NCBI GenBank assembly: GCA_963737155.1
Contig: CAVTRN010000002.1
Location: forward strand, 2,048,001 to 2,112,000
Origin: Nitrospirota bacterium
Lineage (GTDB): Bacteria > Nitrospirota > UBA9217
Length of the DNA stretch: 64,000 bases
Direction of reading: 5' to 3'
The stretch's first letter is position 1. Each line of letters begins with the position of its first letter. Position numbers: made by a program. Positions 18,001-21,000 of this stretch are shown piece after piece.

Positions 18001-21000
18001 GCACTTCCCCAGGCCATTGTGAAGGCGGTAAGGCCTTCAACGATCTGACAGATACGTGCAATGGTGCGGCGATCGTACCGATCTGCAGCGTGGCCCACGA
18101 CGAGCGTCAGCAGGAACATGGGCAGAAATTGCGCAAGCCCGACGAGACCCAGATATAGCGCACTGCCAGTAAGTGCGTAGATCTGCCAACCCACGGCTAC
18201 GGCTTGCATCTGGAAGGCGACCATCGTCGCTGTCCGAGCGAACCAAAATAGGATAAATTGACGTTGTCGCAGGATCGGTTGTGTTTCAACCTGATCGAAA
18301 GGAGAGGTCATGTCGTTATTTATAATATTCCTTGCAGGATACTACTACGAAGGTTTAATCATCTCTTGTTTCAAATAACTCCGTGATGCTTCTTTTCCCG
18401 ATGACATCTAGACCTCTTTCAAGGGGGACTTTTCTGATTCTGTCTGCACCGGTCAAATTCTTTGCGCATCTAACGAATTTCTGGTCATCTTCGGCCGTCT
18501 GGAGAATATGATAAATCCCGAGTTATCTCGTCCATGTCGTCGTTCTCCCGAGGAGATATATGCCGATGAAACCCCTTAAATTTAGTTGGCTAGGAGACAA
18601 CAGTGTCATCTGGCCGCTGTAAGTCTTTCCGTTGTCCGGGTTGTAAATCTTTCCATCCGTCCATGAGCCGGCACCGGCATACATGAAGTCGTAGAGAATC
18701 TGAAGACCAACGATAGGATATTTTCTCAGGTTCGGGTTCGGGTTGTTATGATCGAGTGCCGGCGTACCTGGCGTACCCTCCTTTGAATCAGCCGGATAAT
18801 TCGGGTCCCTAGACCAGACAATTTTGCCGCAGTACTTTACGCCGCATTTATAGATCATTATTTCTGCTTCTTTTCCCTGGGTATTCCACACTCCCAGAAT
18901 ACCATCCGAGCCGGCAGCATGGGCTGCTGCTGTCACACCCATCACCAGGACCACAAGAGATATGAATATCCGCTGACTCATTTTAAGCGTTGAAACAAGC
19001 ATTTTGAATTGTCTCCCATAAGTTGAAAATAGCATGAAGAAGGTTTCCTGCATTCTCTCTCATTTCCGGGAATTCATCCCTGTAAACTGCAAATACAGAC
19101 GGGAAAGCGATATCCGCAACTGCGAGAAAATTACGGCTAAACCCGCAGACAGATATCTGCTTTAAAAGCCACGACCATAAACTAACCCGAATTCTTATTG
19201 ATCAGACGATAATTACCGAAGGATTATGCACAAGAGAGATCAATTTCAATCAGAAAGACATGATTTTCATTCCTGAAGGTCGTGACCGGGGAAATCCTCT
19301 CATTGGCGGCGAATAAAATATTTATAGTTCGTTTTTTAACTCCTCCCGCAAGAATTAAACGTGGTCCTTGACAGGTCTTTCGGCTTAGTGCCACTTACCC
19401 CTCTTCCCATCATCATATTACTTAAGACAGTAGCTTGTTGTGTTTCATTCCTTTCACGGTTGTGGAGCGGCGGGAGAATCTCACTCTTCTTCCCTGACAT
19501 CCTTGCAATTTTTTTTATTACGAAATTAGGATATTCCGGCACCTCTCAACATTAATAAAATTACACTATTTATCTCTGCCATCTGCATTTAATAACCTGC
19601 TTACTTCAGGAAATCTTCAAAGATATTTTTCCCATAATCAAGCACCTGGTAAAGTTGGTACATTTCACCCTTTCCAAAAGCGGGTTTTTTCTCTCGCCAT
19701 TTTTCCAGATGCCCTTCAGAACAAAAGAAGTTCATGAATGGGCAAAACGTCTTTGCGGTACATCCGCATTGTTCCCGGTTGCTGACGAATTCAACAACGC
19801 TTTCGGGAACACAGGATGCAATTTTGCAGTGCTTCACTTCGATCTTAATTTCCTTATCGCACTCAGGACAATGAGATCGAACAGAAATGTCCTCTCGAAG
19901 CATAAAATGGATACCTAGAGCGTCTGTTGCGCAGAGGGCATATACTTCATGCCCATCCTGAAAGACAACTTTATGGCGAGTTACTTTAGCAGAAAAAGGG
20001 TACGCAGAAATAATTTCGCCACCTTCCGTCGTTAGAATGTCTGCCCTATGCAGTTTTTCGACGATACGATAAGCTGATTCGAGGGATGGCAACATCATTA
20101 CCTCGGTGATCATTTTATCGGATGGGGGCTTGCCGGTCCTTCCGAACTCTTTCAGGATATATTTACGCGTCTCGTCTTCCGATTGACTCAAGCGCGCTTG
20201 CGCCACTCTTCCTTTTACCGTTTCCCCGATCAGGTCCATAAGACTTTTTGTAACTGTCTTTCTTTTAAAAGATGCGTCCCCCATTCCGCAATTTCCCTCC
20301 CTCATCGCTTTTCGAAGCGTATCAACTGATGGGACATTCGCGAGCCAGCCCGACTCGTCCTTGAACATCCTTCAGGAAAAGCCGGTGATGTCCTGCGGCT
20401 GCAATTCCTCTCCATCAAAAAAGACCGATGGCGATCCGCTGAGTTTCAGCTCTGCCGCTTTTTCATCGCTGATTCGATAAATACTTACATCAGCATGAAT
20501 CTTTTCGGCTTTTAAAGCAAGGGCAATATTCTCCTTTAACGTATCCTCGGAGCCGCATCCTTGTGATACGTAGCAGTCGATTTTCATGCTCTCTCCATTT
20601 GCGTATTCAGTTCATAAAAGATTATTAACGTCGGATTCATGATGTAACGAGGCTGAAATATGAGCAAATCACGCCATTCTTAAGACCTCGGATGAGTATA
20701 TGCTTGGTGTTTTTAGTTGTCAACGAGTTCGATTACATTACATACATATAGAATCTTGTGTATGCCGTTATAATACCATGTTGCATCTCGCTATTTTCTG
20801 CCCAATTGATCATGTCAATATTAACTCAGAACCCACATAGAAAAAGAGGAACCCTGCAAATATCAGATGCCATAAACACTTTAGGGACGAATAGTTCGCG
20901 ACTCTGAGAGAGAACACGGACTAATAAAGCCTGTCCAGAATCAGGACAGGCTTTTACGTGCACTCAATTATGTGACCATTCAAAACGGTATTTCAGCATC

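What a model noticed while it worked through the whole genome (the two positions that open the first line are those of the whole stretch)
19601..20587. Selenocysteine 'DF' domain fused to a MerB-like organometallic lyase
One minus-strand gene encodes a 328-aa selenoprotein. It has an N-terminal ~100-residue thioredoxin-like DF-family domain with Sec at residue 72 (in-frame TGA at 2068372-2068374). This is fused to a winged-helix/MerB-like lyase that keeps the C-x-x-D and F-C motifs. Gene callers split it at the TGA, so public relatives often appear as ~255-aa 'alkylmercury lyase' proteins. Among the genomes searched, the full fusion occurs only in this organism's family.
Evidence so far: - Pfam MerB at 198-323. 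- NCBIfam SaoL 89.6 bits, MerB models, and the DF_fam_seleno model matched end to end across the TGA. - Class search of 64 genomes: 10 full-length places in 8 other genomes at 71-76% identity, each with exactly 1 TGA; 49 of 64 genomes have some match, mostly the DF part, most with 1 TGA. - Alignment of 8 orthologs: TGA column and flanks invariant; C11, C219, D222 and C282 invariant. - A 6-bp hairpin 17 nt after the UGA is kept in 8 of 8. - 208 database relatives of the post-TGA part; 4 of 4 inspected 254/255-aa entries start at the Met two codons after the TGA. - Phylum sample of 151 genomes in 22 families: full-length matches only in f1. - tRNA-Sec and SelD are prese [...]
(Added by a program. 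Inside this text positions count along the whole contig: contig position 2,048,001 is position 1 of the stretch shown here. "Call 12" and the like, gene names such as g00115 and contig names such as C1 are that model's own, and its searches are not shown. The text may have been shortened before it was handed on; [...] marks where a part breaks off. The agent that wrote the report below was given it as the finding of a first reader that could run no searches.)

Follow-up and report, generated by a model that had tools for sequence, protein, structure and literature searches.

The report
Selenocysteine thioredoxin-like domain fused to MerB lyase
This is one gene for a mercury-carbon bond-cleaving enzyme that carries an extra front domain containing the rare amino acid selenocysteine, a selenium version of a fusion that is common with ordinary cysteine in actinobacteria.

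Summary
On the minus strand, 19601-20587 is a single reading frame of 328 codons with one in-frame TGA (20372-20374). The N-terminal 100 residues are a thioredoxin-fold DF-family domain (Cys11/Sec72). The rest is a winged-helix plus MerB domain that keeps the catalytic Cys219/Asp222/Cys282.

New support for Sec read-through:
- selA, selB, selD and tRNA-Sec are all present in the genome.
- A 17-nt hairpin 14 nt after the UGA is kept in 35 sequences, with compensatory changes in its closing pair.
- 93 of the 150 best DF relatives have Cys at the Sec column.
- Cys-form DF-MerB fusions exist as uninterrupted ORFs in many Actinomycetota.

The claim that the fusion is confined to this family is therefore wrong. 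The Sec form also occurs in a second Nitrospirota family, there fused to MerR as well.

In 5 of 15 Sec-fusion loci the gene follows a MerA that lacks NmerA, and 3 of 15 carry MerR. The window's own copy has no such neighbours and lies between two identical IS-like copies.

Most likely function: an organomercurial lyase whose Cys/Sec domain removes Hg(II) from the active site or supplies the thiol. This is inferred, not shown. I rate it a new variant of a known kind, interest about 0.6.

The parts
19601..20587 (-). Whole coding sequence, 328 codons plus TAA stop (19601-19603), read with TGA 20372-20374 as Sec
   Evidence: pN/pS is 0.22 before the TGA, 0.28 just after it and 0.20 in the MerB part, across 14 fusion orthologues.
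20288..20587 (-). DF-family (DUF2703-like) thioredoxin-fold domain, residues 1-100. Cys11 is at 20555-20557.
   Evidence: NF049942 matches residues 4-94 to model 2-96 of 96, 41.1 bits, below the cut-off of 70. AF2 pLDDT 90 and pTM 0.82. Thioredoxins are the best structural matches: Foldseek E 1.5e-3, VIA Z 8.4, rmsd 2.9 A over 81 residues. C11, the G51-S52-P53 motif, U72 and R73 are invariant in 34 sequences.
20372..20374 (-). In-frame TGA, read as selenocysteine 72
   Evidence: TGA is present at this column in all 33 aligned sequences and in L041, L099 and L101. Cys occupies this column in 93 of the 150 best database relatives, and 52 of 150 end just before it.
20341..20357 (-). SECIS-like hairpin: 6-bp stem with a 5-nt loop NGGNN, starting 14 nt after the UGA
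   Evidence: 97.5% of cells are paired in 33 sequences. The closing pair is C-G 19, U-A 8, U-G 1, unpaired 5. It is A-U in L041 and G-U in L099. The stem Leu codon is CTC in 33 of 33, against 72 of 323 Leu codons gene-wide. The stem Glu codon is GAG in 31 of 33, against 193 of 450 gene-wide. Folding of the single sequence alone is not significant (z -1.15).
20332..20370 (-). Possible lower helix around the hairpin (weak)
   Evidence: 81% of cells are paired; 3 of 8 pairs show changes on both sides. RNAalifold does not predict it.
20213..20287 (-). Linker, residues 101-125, variable and low-confidence
   Evidence: pLDDT is below 50 for residues 100-112. pN/pS is 0.53, and the indels seen (6 codons and 1 codon) are in frame.
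19997..20212 (-). Helical / winged-helix N-terminal part of the MerB-like module, residues 126-197
   Evidence: The AF2 model shows helices 116-181. The region aligns with the N-terminal part of MerB and MerB2. Relatives give a weak LexA_DNA_bind hit here.
19619..19996 (-). MerB catalytic core, residues 198-323, with Cys219 (19931-19933), Asp222 (19922-19924) and Cys282 (19742-19744)
   Evidence: Pfam PF03243 scores 102.6 bits against a threshold of 27. The HMMER alignment to MerB puts 'YALCATDAL' on 'YAWCALDTL' and 'TFCPFMNFF' on 'SFCSHVHFF'. Foldseek finds MerB2 5c17 at E 5.5e-14, TM(target) 0.83.
20591..20596 (-). Shine-Dalgarno-like GGAGAG, 3 nt before the ATG of the DF domain
   Evidence: Read directly. 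By contrast, the AGG before the internal ATG (20366-20368) abuts it with no spacer, and it is the invariant Arg73 codon, also present in standalone DF genes that lack the ATG.
20695..20723 (-). Sigma-70-like promoter match TTGACA-17-TATACT (11 of 12), about 110 nt upstream of the DF start
   Evidence: This is a consensus match only: 9 sites were found in the region against 6.0 expected.

Best explanation
**Shown.**
- 19601-20587(-) is one gene for a 328-residue selenoprotein.
- Residues 1-100 form a thioredoxin-fold DF/DUF2703-like domain. Its two invariant reactive residues are Cys11, at the start of helix 1, and Sec72, encoded by UGA and followed by a conserved hairpin.
- Residues about 113-328 are a MerB-type lyase with the Cys-Asp-Cys catalytic set.

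**Inferred.**
- The lyase cleaves carbon-mercury bonds by protonolysis, as MerB does, leaving Hg(II) held by Cys219 and Cys282.
- The tethered Cys11/Sec72 pair then takes the Hg(II) out of the active site, or supplies the thiol/selenol that MerB otherwise needs from solution.
- It passes the Hg(II) on. In sister genomes the recipient would be a MerA that lacks its own N-terminal metal-binding domain and is encoded just upstream.
- On this reading the DF domain does the job that NmerA or free thiols do for classical MerB.

**The window's own copy.** It has no mer neighbours. It lies between two identical IS-like copies, so it may work alone or be a transposed stray.
For: **Selenoprotein and fusion**
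- The genome has selA (603.6 bits), selB (374.3), selD (370.5, itself with a TGA) and tRNA-Sec (65 bits), all above their cut-offs.
- The TGA and its flanks are kept in 33 of 33 aligned DF sequences.
- The hairpin is 97.5% paired and shows compensatory changes, with a codon bias inside the stem.
- There is purifying selection on both sides of the TGA.
- In the models the DF domain's last helix (residues 88-99/100) lies after the TGA. A complete domain therefore requires read-through.
- Cys sits at the Sec column in 93 of 150 relatives.
- Cys-form fusions are uninterrupted: P0250 aligns with residues 1-323 (E 9e-38). In 26 of 30 inspected Actinomycetota loci the frame stays open for at least 287 aa with a DF hit.

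**Mercury link**
- The catalytic residues and the fold match MerB and MerB2.
- MerA lies directly upstream in L034, L035, L039, L040 and L042. It is above the equivalog cut-off in three: 530.5, 494.9 and 507.9 bits against 454.45. It aligns only from position 98 of the 560-position MerA model, so it has no NmerA. It ends in ...SCC.
- A MerR-like regulator is in L034 and L042. It is fused in frame to DF-MerB in L041 (465 aa) and in protein clusters P0122-P0124.
- In L101/L102 a MerR-MerB fusion is followed by a separate DF selenoprotein gene.
- One protein, P0110, has the reversed order MerB-DF.
- A Cys-type DF domain is fused to MerTP in P0189.
Against: - There is no protein, 75Se or RNA evidence.
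- The NCBIfam MerB and DF scores are below their curated cut-offs, and the best NCBIfam hit is SaoL, not MerB.
- The window's own locus has no MerA, MerR, SHOCT protein or small secreted protein. The genome has no MerA above the cut-off; the best scores 396.3.
- 9 of 15 fusion loci carry neither MerA nor MerR in the flanks held.
- Standalone DF genes sit beside thioredoxin-2, AhpD-like and Fur genes, not mer genes. That fits a redox role as well as a metal role.
- I had no model coordinates, so neither the Cys11-Sec72 distance nor any docking onto the MerB site was measured.
- The window's copy has Trp at position 81, where at least 90% of DF sequences have Arg.
Confidence: 0.6

Rival explanations
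1. The fusion selenoprotein is real, but the DF domain is a redox module and not a metal acceptor. Its Cys11/Sec72 pair cycles through a selenylsulfide, is recharged by thioredoxin, and keeps the lyase's cysteines reduced or resolves a covalent intermediate.
For: - The domain has a thioredoxin fold.
- Of the 21 non-fusion DF loci (L010-L030), 5 lie next to Zn-ribbon thioredoxin-2, 5 next to AhpD-like CMD proteins and 2 next to Fur-family regulators.
- Cys-type DF domains are fused to AhpC/TSA (P0251) and to a Thioredoxin_3/glutaredoxin domain (P0224).
- DUF2703 proteins have been proposed as thioredoxin-like reductants in an ars cluster (PMC6514093, passages read).
Against: - DF is also fused to MerTP and MerR, and it sits in mer operons.
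- MerB chemistry is a protonolysis with no net redox step. This is established knowledge of MerB, recalled rather than tested here.
Confidence: 0.22
2. The enzyme is real but does not act on mercury. It acts on another organometal or organometalloid, or has a metabolic rather than a resistance role, like the SaoL branch of MerB relatives.
For: - The best NCBIfam hit is SaoL at 89.6 bits, against 60.6 and 55.6 for the MerB models.
- The protein has extra cysteines that the aligned MerB sequence lacks: C243, C274 and C276.
- There is no MerA in the window's genome.
- In L031 the neighbours are an ArsM-like selenoprotein fragment and an SQR-like gene.
- The same MerB clade occurs unfused, with no DF gene in the flanks held, in Methanoperedens, Geobacter and Dehalococcoidia; mer genes were not looked for there.
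Against: - MerA is adjacent in 5 loci, and MerR is adjacent or fused in 3 fusion loci plus L101/L102.
- The fused MerR sequences show a Cys-x8-Cys-Pro pattern. That this pattern marks Hg(II)-sensing MerR is recalled.
- SaoL's defining CU motif is absent.
Confidence: 0.13
3. There are two separate products. The TGA is a true stop ending a 71-residue peptide, and the 255-residue MerB-like protein starts at the ATG two codons later.
For: - An ATG follows the TGA-AGG.
- Gene callers produce 255-aa proteins.
- There is no expression or proteomic evidence either way.
Against: - The DF fold needs residues 73-99, which lie after the TGA.
- Cys-form homologues are continuous.
- The TGA, the hairpin and the biased stem codons are conserved, and the Sec machinery is complete.
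- The AGG abuts the ATG with no spacer. It is the invariant Arg73 codon, also present in standalone DF genes that have no ATG there.
- A good GGAGAG Shine-Dalgarno and a promoter-like site lie upstream of the DF start.
- Some termination at the UGA alongside read-through cannot be excluded.
Confidence: 0.05

Closest known systems
Cys-form DF-MerB fusion proteins of Actinomycetota, such as loci L109 (Streptomyces carpinensis), L124 (Streptomyces sp. NBC_00637 plasmid), L138 (Rhodococcus sp. ARC_M6) and protein cluster P0267, which JGI names 'alkylmercury lyase'
   Same: - Same domain order and about the same length (300-340 aa).
- Same invariant Cys11.
- Same '...S-C/U-R...' motif and the same MerB C-x-x-D motif.
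- P0250 aligns end to end with residues 1-323, 27% identity, E 9e-38.
   Different: - They have Cys where the window's protein has Sec, so they are called as complete proteins.
- They have CPxx at the first Cys instead of CGSE.
- They come from a different phylum.
- I found no paper that describes the N-terminal domain of these proteins.
DF family (seleno)protein, NCBIfam NF049942, the 'hypothetical protein DF' of deep-Sep (PMC12013277; passages read)
   Same: - Same roughly 96-residue domain, with the Sec/Cys at the same column and the same flanking motif.
- The match runs across the model (positions 2-96 of 96).
- A profile built from the window's relatives retrieves core members such as P0164 (NF049942 111.6 bits) at E 8.9e-15.
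   Different: - The score is below the curated cut-off (41.1 against 70).
- The published member is a standalone small protein of unknown function, reported there without TGA-containing homologues.
- Here the domain is fused to an enzyme, and TGA forms are common in Nitrospirota.
MerB / MerB2 organomercurial lyase (PDB 3f0o, 3f2f, 5c17; EC 4.99.1.2)
   Same: - Same fold (TM 0.73-0.83) and the same catalytic Cys-Asp-Cys positions.
- Orthologues share the mer-operon context.
   Different: - About 20% identity, and below the NCBIfam equivalog cut-offs.
- It has an extra N-terminal selenoprotein domain.
- It has extra cysteines at 243, 274 and 276.
- It has a single Cys where MerB has the Cys159-Cys160 pair. 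The pair is recalled; the solved chain aligned is the C160S mutant.
SaoL, the MerB-like selenoprotein of the SAO locus (Haft & Gwadz, bioRxiv 10.1101/2022.07.06.499078; abstract and sections 12 and 30 read)
   Same: It is a MerB relative that uses selenocysteine and that databases hold in truncated form. It is also the best NCBIfam hit (89.6 bits).
   Different: - In SaoL the Sec lies inside the MerB domain, in a CU dipeptide about 50 residues from the C-terminus. Here that position reads F-C-P, and the Sec sits in a separate fused domain.
- The score is below the cut-off of 140.
- There is no SAO-type transporter neighbourhood in the window.
NmerA, the N-terminal metal-binding domain of MerA (a functional analogy only, recalled from the literature on Hg(II) transfer from MerB to MerA)
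   Same: It is a tethered small domain with two soft ligands that could collect Hg(II) and hand it to the MerA core. The adjacent MerA proteins lack NmerA.
   Different: It has a different fold (ferredoxin-like HMA against thioredoxin-like), it is attached to MerA and not to MerB, and it uses Cys/Cys rather than Cys/Sec. No transfer has been tested.

Membership tests
Bacterial selenoprotein gene (general criteria) | In-frame UGA conserved among orthologues, with coding sequence conserved on both sides | tested here: met
   TGA is in 33 of 33 aligned sequences, plus L041, L099 and L101. pN/pS is 0.22 before it and 0.28 after it.
Bacterial selenoprotein gene (general criteria) | Homologues with Cys at the Sec position | tested here: met
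   93 of the 150 best relatives have Cys at that column. Full-length Cys fusions P0250 and P0267 also have it.
Bacterial selenoprotein gene (general criteria) | SECIS-type stem-loop shortly downstream of the UGA | tested here: met
   A 17-nt hairpin starts 14 nt after the UGA. It is 97.5% paired, one pair shows compensatory changes, and GG is invariant in the loop. The spacing and loop rules I compare it with are recalled. There is no Rfam match, and single-sequence folding gives z -1.15.
Bacterial selenoprotein gene (general criteria) | selA, selB, selC and selD present in the genome | tested here: met
   All four are above their curated cut-offs.
Bacterial selenoprotein gene (general criteria) | Selenium actually incorporated into the protein | not testable with these tools
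   No RNA run holds the stretch. No proteomics is available.
DF family (seleno)protein, NF049942 | Profile score at or above the curated cut-off (70 bits) | tested here: not met
   The score is 41.1 bits, although the match spans nearly the whole model (2-96 of 96). I treat it as a divergent branch related to the family, not as a curated member.
DF family (seleno)protein, NF049942 | Conserved Cys near the N-terminus plus a Sec/Cys-Arg motif near residue 72, on a thioredoxin-like fold | tested here: met
   C11, U72 and R73 are invariant in 34 sequences. Thioredoxin fold: VIA Z 8.4, and all Foldseek top hits are thioredoxin-superfamily proteins.
MerB, organomercurial lyase (PF03243 / NCBIfam MerB equivalogs) | Pfam gathering threshold | tested here: met
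   102.6 bits against 27, residues 198-323.
MerB, organomercurial lyase (PF03243 / NCBIfam MerB equivalogs) | NCBIfam equivalog cut-offs (193 and 200 bits) | tested here: not met
   60.6 and 55.6 bits. It is a MerB-family protein by Pfam, not an NCBI-defined MerB equivalog.
MerB, organomercurial lyase (PF03243 / NCBIfam MerB equivalogs) | Catalytic Cys96 / Asp99 / Cys159 equivalents | tested here: met
   C219, D222 and C282 align with them in the HMMER alignment to 3f2g and 1s6l. They are invariant in the clade alignments. The residue numbers of E. coli MerB are recalled.
MerB, organomercurial lyase (PF03243 / NCBIfam MerB equivalogs) | MerB fold | tested here: met
   Foldseek finds 5c17 at E 5.5e-14, TM(target) 0.83. 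The 11 matches with E <= 0.001 are all MerB or MerB2 entries.
MerB, organomercurial lyase (PF03243 / NCBIfam MerB equivalogs) | Location in a mer operon with merA and merR | tested here: inconclusive
   Of 15 fusion loci, 6 have MerA or MerR (MerA in 5, MerR in 3). The window's locus and 8 others have neither in the flanks held.
MerB, organomercurial lyase (PF03243 / NCBIfam MerB equivalogs) | C-Hg protonolysis activity | not testable with these tools
   This needs an enzyme assay.
SaoL (NF040728) | Score at or above 140 bits | tested here: not met
   89.6 bits.
SaoL (NF040728) | CU dipeptide about 50 residues before the C-terminus | tested here: not met
   The equivalent position reads F-C-P (residues 281-283), and the only TGA is at codon 72.
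SaoL (NF040728) | Nine-gene SAO neighbourhood | tested here: not met
   The nearest neighbours are SSB, an IS-like ORF, DUF2147 and an MFS transporter; fragmented ABC-transporter genes lie about 4-9 kb away beyond the IS-like copy (Pfam only). The neighbours were not scanned with the Sao NCBIfam models.

The most novel reading that the evidence does not exclude
This would be the first selenoprotein component of a canonical mer (mercury-resistance) operon. The DF/DUF2703-like thioredoxin-fold domain would be a dedicated Hg(II) hand-off module.

- It would use a Cys/Sec (or Cys/Cys) pair to pull Hg(II) out of MerB and feed MerA enzymes that lack NmerA.
- It would have been recruited repeatedly by fusion to MerB, in both orders, and to MerR and MerTP.
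- That would give the 'hypothetical protein DF' family a function as a soft-metal shuttle.
- It would also show that anaerobic Nitrospirota use selenium to speed mercury detoxification.
Probability: 0.35. Interest if true: 0.8.

Novelty: new variant of a known kind. Interest (0 to 1): 0.6.

Why it matters
[quoted passage not shown] Here a Sec-containing protein sits directly after merA, with merR nearby or fused, in several Nitrospirota genomes.

**Annotation.** Public databases hold this protein only as 255-aa or shorter fragments. Surveys of merB therefore miss the selenium dependence and the extra domain.

**A testable function for DF.** DF-type domains are repeatedly joined to MerB, MerR and MerTP. 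This suggests that an otherwise uncharacterised thioredoxin-fold family (DF/DUF2703-like) handles Hg(II) for the lyase. The idea also applies to the Cys-form fusions in culturable Streptomyces and Rhodococcus, where it can be tested at the bench.

**Limit.** The architecture itself is not new, and the function is inferred.

Tried and rejected
- **Complex prediction (DF domain against the MerB part).** No docking evidence exists either way.
- **RNA evidence.** No RNA holder is listed for 19400-20800, only six soil DNA runs with partial shares. I did not lay reads.
- **Rfam.** No family matches the hairpin. The listed weak hits (E 0.078-9.4) are chance-level.
- **Single-sequence folding of the 54 nt after the UGA.** z -1.15, not informative on its own.
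- **Lower helix around the hairpin.** 81% paired and not predicted by RNAalifold. I kept it only as 'possible'.
- **DNA for the reversed-order protein P0110.** It was not found in genome contigs or metagenome contigs, so its terminal codon could not be checked. It stands as a single protein record.
- **DF genes near the unfused MerB-clade genes.** The DF HMM found none within the flanks held (up to 3 kb) in 17 of 30 loci, which include archaea, Geobacter and Dehalococcoidia. This is not evidence that those genomes lack one.
- **Paper PMC12013261 (Haft & Tolstoy 2025).** Not held, so I could not check whether it mentions this fusion. Supplements of the deep-Sep paper were not available either.
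- **Literature searches.** They found no description of a DF/DUF2703-MerB fusion. One search was swamped by 'merbecovirus' hits.
- **SaoL membership.** Considered and rejected; see the membership test.
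Full report
**1. What is in the sequence**

On the minus strand, two ORFs lie in one frame: 20372..20587 (71 aa) and 19601..20368 (255 aa). 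Only TGA (20372-20374) and AGG separate them. Reading the TGA as Sec gives 328 residues.

- Pfam MerB: 102.6 bits at residues 198-323.
- NCBIfam SaoL: 89.6 bits, cut-off 140.
- MerB models: 60.6 and 55.6 bits, cut-offs 193 and 200.
- DF_fam_seleno: 41.1 bits, cut-off 70. It matches residues 4-94 to model positions 2-96 of 96, so it runs across the TGA.

A GGAGAG Shine-Dalgarno lies 3 nt before the first ATG. A TTGACA-17-TATACT match lies about 110 nt upstream (a consensus match only).

**2. Is the TGA read as selenocysteine?**

The genome has the full machinery, each part above its curated cut-off:
- selA at 603.6 bits and selB at 374.3 bits, adjacent to each other.
- selD at 370.5 bits, itself with an in-frame TGA.
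- tRNA-Sec at 65 bits.

I aligned the 54 nt from the TGA in 33 distinct sequences, 12 fusions and 21 other DF genes (20 standalone plus the truncated L010).
- The TGA is invariant.
- A 6-bp stem with a 5-nt loop (NGGNN, GG invariant) starts 14 nt after the UGA. It is paired in 97.5% of cells.
- RNAalifold predicts the same hairpin.
- Its closing pair is C-G in 19, U-A in 8, U-G in 1 and unpaired in 5.
- Two fusions not in that alignment add an A-U closing pair (L041) and a G-C to G-U change (L099).
- The Leu codon inside the stem is CTC in 33 of 33, while CTC makes up 72 of 323 Leu codons across the 14 fusion genes. The stem Glu codon is GAG in 31 of 33, against 193 of 450 gene-wide.

Against this, folding of the single sequence is not significant (z -1.15) and Rfam has no match. 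The stem also encodes the conserved peptide D-E-S-G-R-L, so protein and RNA constraints are partly confounded.

Across 14 distinct fusion genes, pN/pS is as follows, at pS of about 0.54-0.62:

| Region | pN/pS |
|---|---|
| Codons 1-71 | 0.218 |
| Codons 73-100 | 0.277 |
| Linker | 0.532 |
| Winged-helix part | 0.306 |
| MerB part | 0.195 |

The classical Sec/Cys test is also met. A profile of the DF domain found 2062 proteins at E <= 0.001 among 1.84 billion representatives. Of the best 150:
- 93 have Cys at the Sec column, and 89 of those also have Cys at the Cys11 column.
- 52 end before that column, 18 of them exactly at residue 71, as truncated Sec forms would.
- 5 have something else: Arg, His, Leu, Trp or a gap.

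**3. Is it one fused protein?**

The DF domain cannot be completed without read-through. In 34 DF sequences the invariant positions include C11, G51-S52-P53, U72, R73, S79, G80, L82 and P86. The last helix of the domain (residues 88-99) lies after the TGA.

Standalone DF genes stop about 25-35 codons after the Sec. In the fusions the frame runs on, without a stop, into the MerB module. The indels in the linker are of 6 codons and 1 codon.

The strongest evidence is the set of Cys-form fusions with uninterrupted ORFs.
- P0250 (329 aa) aligns with residues 1-323 at 27% identity, E 9e-38. Cys aligns with U72, and Cys11, Cys219, Asp222 and Cys282 are matched.
- P0267 heads a cluster of 15 proteins, 13 of which JGI names 'alkylmercury lyase'.
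- A scan of species-representative genomes returned 68 loci. Many are from named Actinomycetota: Streptomyces, Nonomuraea, Kribbella, Rhodococcus, Amycolatopsis, Nocardioides, Mycobacteroides and others.
- I inspected 30 of the 68. Of these, 27 have a DF profile hit, and in 26 of those the frame stays open for at least 287 aa from the DF start.

The internal ATG with 'AGGA' is weak as a rival start. The AGG abuts the ATG with no spacer. It is the invariant Arg73 codon, also found in standalone DF genes that have no ATG there.

**4. Structure**

With an alignment that includes standalone DF genes, the full model has mean pLDDT 88.6 and pTM 0.64, with a disordered linker at 100-112.
- The C-terminal module matches MerB2 (5c17, E 5.5e-14, TM(target) 0.83). 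The 11 matches at E <= 0.001 are all MerB or MerB2 entries.
- The HMMER alignment to solved MerB places C219 and D222 on the 'C-A-L-D' motif and C282 on the second catalytic Cys.
- The DF domain alone models at pLDDT 90.0 and pTM 0.82. It is thioredoxin-like. The best Foldseek hit (E 1.5e-3) and almost all listed hits are thioredoxin-superfamily proteins. VIA-align gives Z 8.4, rmsd 2.9 A over 81 residues, in the range where the tool warns that only a common arrangement may be shared.

I had no coordinates, so I could not measure the C11-U72 distance.

**5. Distribution**

The Sec fusion occurs in:
- 10 places in 9 of the 64 genomes of the family, counting the window's own.
- Titled Nitrospirota MAGs only, among the close relatives found in species-representative genomes: 12 of 12 loci, and 13 of 30 loci, which adds L099.
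- One JGI metagenome contig (L103).

In a sample of 401 genomes of the phylum (44 families), full-length matches are in f1 and in one genome of f24 (G369, 57% identity, open frame 556 aa). The 'one family only' statement is therefore too narrow.

Standalone DF genes with one TGA occur in many families of the phylum.

The same MerB clade, at 49-65% identity to the unfused query P0110, occurs without a DF gene in the flanks held. It is found in Methanoperedens, Methanocellaceae, Hydrothermarchaeota, Geobacter argillaceus and Dehalococcoidia.

**6. Context, and what it says about function**

The window's own neighbours are:
- SSB (20980-21450).
- A 514-aa ORF with no family match.
- DUF2147.
- An MFS transporter.

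The gene lies in a 7.9-kb segment between two 100% identical, inverted 1657-nt copies, at 11906-13562 and 21453-23109. The genome has no MerA above the cut-off; the best scores 396.3 against 454.45.

The orthologues tell more. I examined 15 fusion loci: the window, L031-L042, L099 and L103.
- MerA lies directly upstream in 5: L034, L035, L039, L040 and L042.
- The three whole MerA proteins score 530.5, 494.9 and 507.9 bits against 454.45. They align only from position 98 of the 560-position model, so they have no NmerA domain, and they end in ...SCC.
- MerR-like regulators are in L034 and L042 (134.5 and 134.8 bits, just under the cut-off of 150.85) and in L041.
- A small SHOCT membrane protein sits between merA and the fusion in 4 loci.
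- A small secreted two-Cys ORF of about 118 aa follows the fusion in 8 loci, with a partial copy in L041.

Other arrangements point the same way:
- In L041 (the f24 type) MerR, DF and MerB are in one frame of 465 codons with one TGA. Protein clusters P0122-P0124 show the same MerR-DF junction and end at '...GFS'.
- In metagenome loci L101 and L102, MerR is fused to an unfused-type MerB. It is followed by the small secreted ORF and then by a separate DF selenoprotein gene on the same strand.
- One protein record, P0110, has the reverse order, MerB then DF, and also ends at '...TGFS'. I could not obtain its DNA.
- A Cys-type DF domain is fused to a MerTP transporter in P0189 (DF 110.6 bits, MerTP 108.6).
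- It is also fused to an ABC-2 permease (P0257), to AhpC/TSA (P0251) and to a Thioredoxin_3/glutaredoxin domain (P0224).

By contrast, of the 21 loci L010-L030, 5 have thioredoxin-2, 5 have AhpD-like CMD, 2 have Fur and 5 have GDSL genes beside the DF gene. None has mer genes.

**7. Mechanism**

Shown: a MerB-fold lyase with its catalytic residues is tethered to a thioredoxin-fold domain with an invariant Cys/Sec pair, in mer operons in several genomes.

Inferred from established MerB chemistry (recalled): after protonolysis, Hg(II) stays bound to the two catalytic cysteines. It must be removed by thiols or by NmerA. The fused Cys/Sec pair is well placed to do this and to feed a MerA that lacks NmerA.

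The main rival is a purely redox role for DF, which the thioredoxin-2, AhpD and AhpC associations favour. A non-mercury substrate is possible for copies without mer neighbours, including the window's own.

**8. Comparison and novelty**

- It is a Pfam MerB-family protein but not an NCBI MerB equivalog.
- It is not SaoL: it scores below the cut-off, has no CU motif and has no SAO neighbourhood.
- Its N-terminal domain is a divergent relative of NF049942. That family is the 'hypothetical protein DF' of the deep-Sep paper, reported there as a standalone protein of unknown function without TGA-containing homologues (PMC12013277, passages read). A 2026 review lists it as well (PMC13188914, passages read).
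- Relatives are also named DUF2703.
- The architecture exists with Cys in many sequenced actinobacteria, so it is not new as a protein. NCBI types its model 'subfamily_domain', and the model hits fused proteins.
- I found no paper that describes the fusion or a selenoprotein in a mer operon. One likely relevant paper is not held, and supplements were closed.

**Verdict:** a real feature, a new variant of a known kind, interest 0.6.

Noticed in passing
window 11906-13562 and 21453-23109: Two 1657-nt copies are 100% identical and inverted. Each carries a 514-aa ORF with no Pfam or NCBIfam match. They flank a 7.9-kb segment holding Usp, an adhesin-E-like gene, MFS, DUF2147, the fusion gene and SSB. 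The arrangement looks like a composite transposon.
   Followed up: partly
L041:5587-6981 (+), the same as G369:C8; proteins P0122-P0124: MerR, the DF domain (one TGA) and MerB lie in one reading frame of 465 codons. Three protein clusters show the same MerR-DF junction and are cut off at the Sec codon. The regulator and the enzyme appear to be fused.
   Followed up: partly
L101:2093-4041 and L102 (metagenome contigs): MerR is fused in frame to a MerB-like protein with no DF domain (372 aa). A small secreted two-Cys ORF follows, then a separate standalone DF selenoprotein gene on the same strand.
   Followed up: partly
protein P0110 (305 aa, one record): This protein has the reverse domain order, MerB-like first and DF last. 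It ends at '...TGFS', just before the Sec position. Its DNA was not found, so the terminal codon is unchecked.
   Followed up: partly
proteins P0189, P0257, P0251, P0194, P0237: Cys-type DF domains are fused to a MerTP mercury transporter, to an ABC-2 permease and to an AhpC/TSA peroxiredoxin. In two proteins the DF domain sits at the C-terminus of an otherwise unassigned protein.
   Followed up: partly
L033-L036, L038-L040, L099 (about 25 nt after the fusion gene); L101:3317-3691: A conserved ORF of about 118-123 aa has a signal-peptide-like start, one Cys just after it and an 'NCN' near the end. It follows the fusion gene in 8 of 15 loci, with a partial copy in L041. It has no family match and is absent from the window.
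   Followed up: partly
L035:5659-5973, L039:5662-5973, L042:5658-5972, L040:482-835: A small membrane protein with a SHOCT domain and a 'GWGCGMGW' motif is encoded between merA and the fusion gene.
   Followed up: no
window 23478-27178: There is a run of short adjacent ORFs, each matching part of one family: LarA N- and C-terminal pieces, ABC ATPase pieces and branched-chain permease pieces. They look like genes broken by frameshifts, either pseudogenes or indel errors in the assembly.
   Followed up: no
G000:C1:1242985-1243899: The genome's selD carries one in-frame TGA, so SelD is itself a selenoprotein here.
   Followed up: no
L031:5055-5633 and 7257-8731: In one orthologous locus the upstream ORF is the first 193 aa of an ArsM-like methyltransferase. 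It matches NCBI's double-selenoprotein models (221 bits, cut-off 510), so it is probably truncated at a Sec codon. Downstream lie a Cys-rich 'zf-like' protein and an SQR-like oxidoreductase.
   Followed up: no
protein P0131 (105 aa; cluster of 5): The closest full-length DF relative in the representative library has Arg ('GFSRRRF') where the others have Sec or Cys.
   Followed up: no
L035 and L039 (one contig, about 72 kb apart): One genome carries two copies of the merA-SHOCT-fusion block. Each is followed by the same RES toxin / Xre antitoxin pair, which suggests a duplicated or mobile segment.
   Followed up: no
window codon 81 (20345-20347): The window's protein has Trp (TGG) at a DF position that is Arg in at least 90% of the 34 aligned sequences. 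Two other fusions have Gly there.
   Followed up: no
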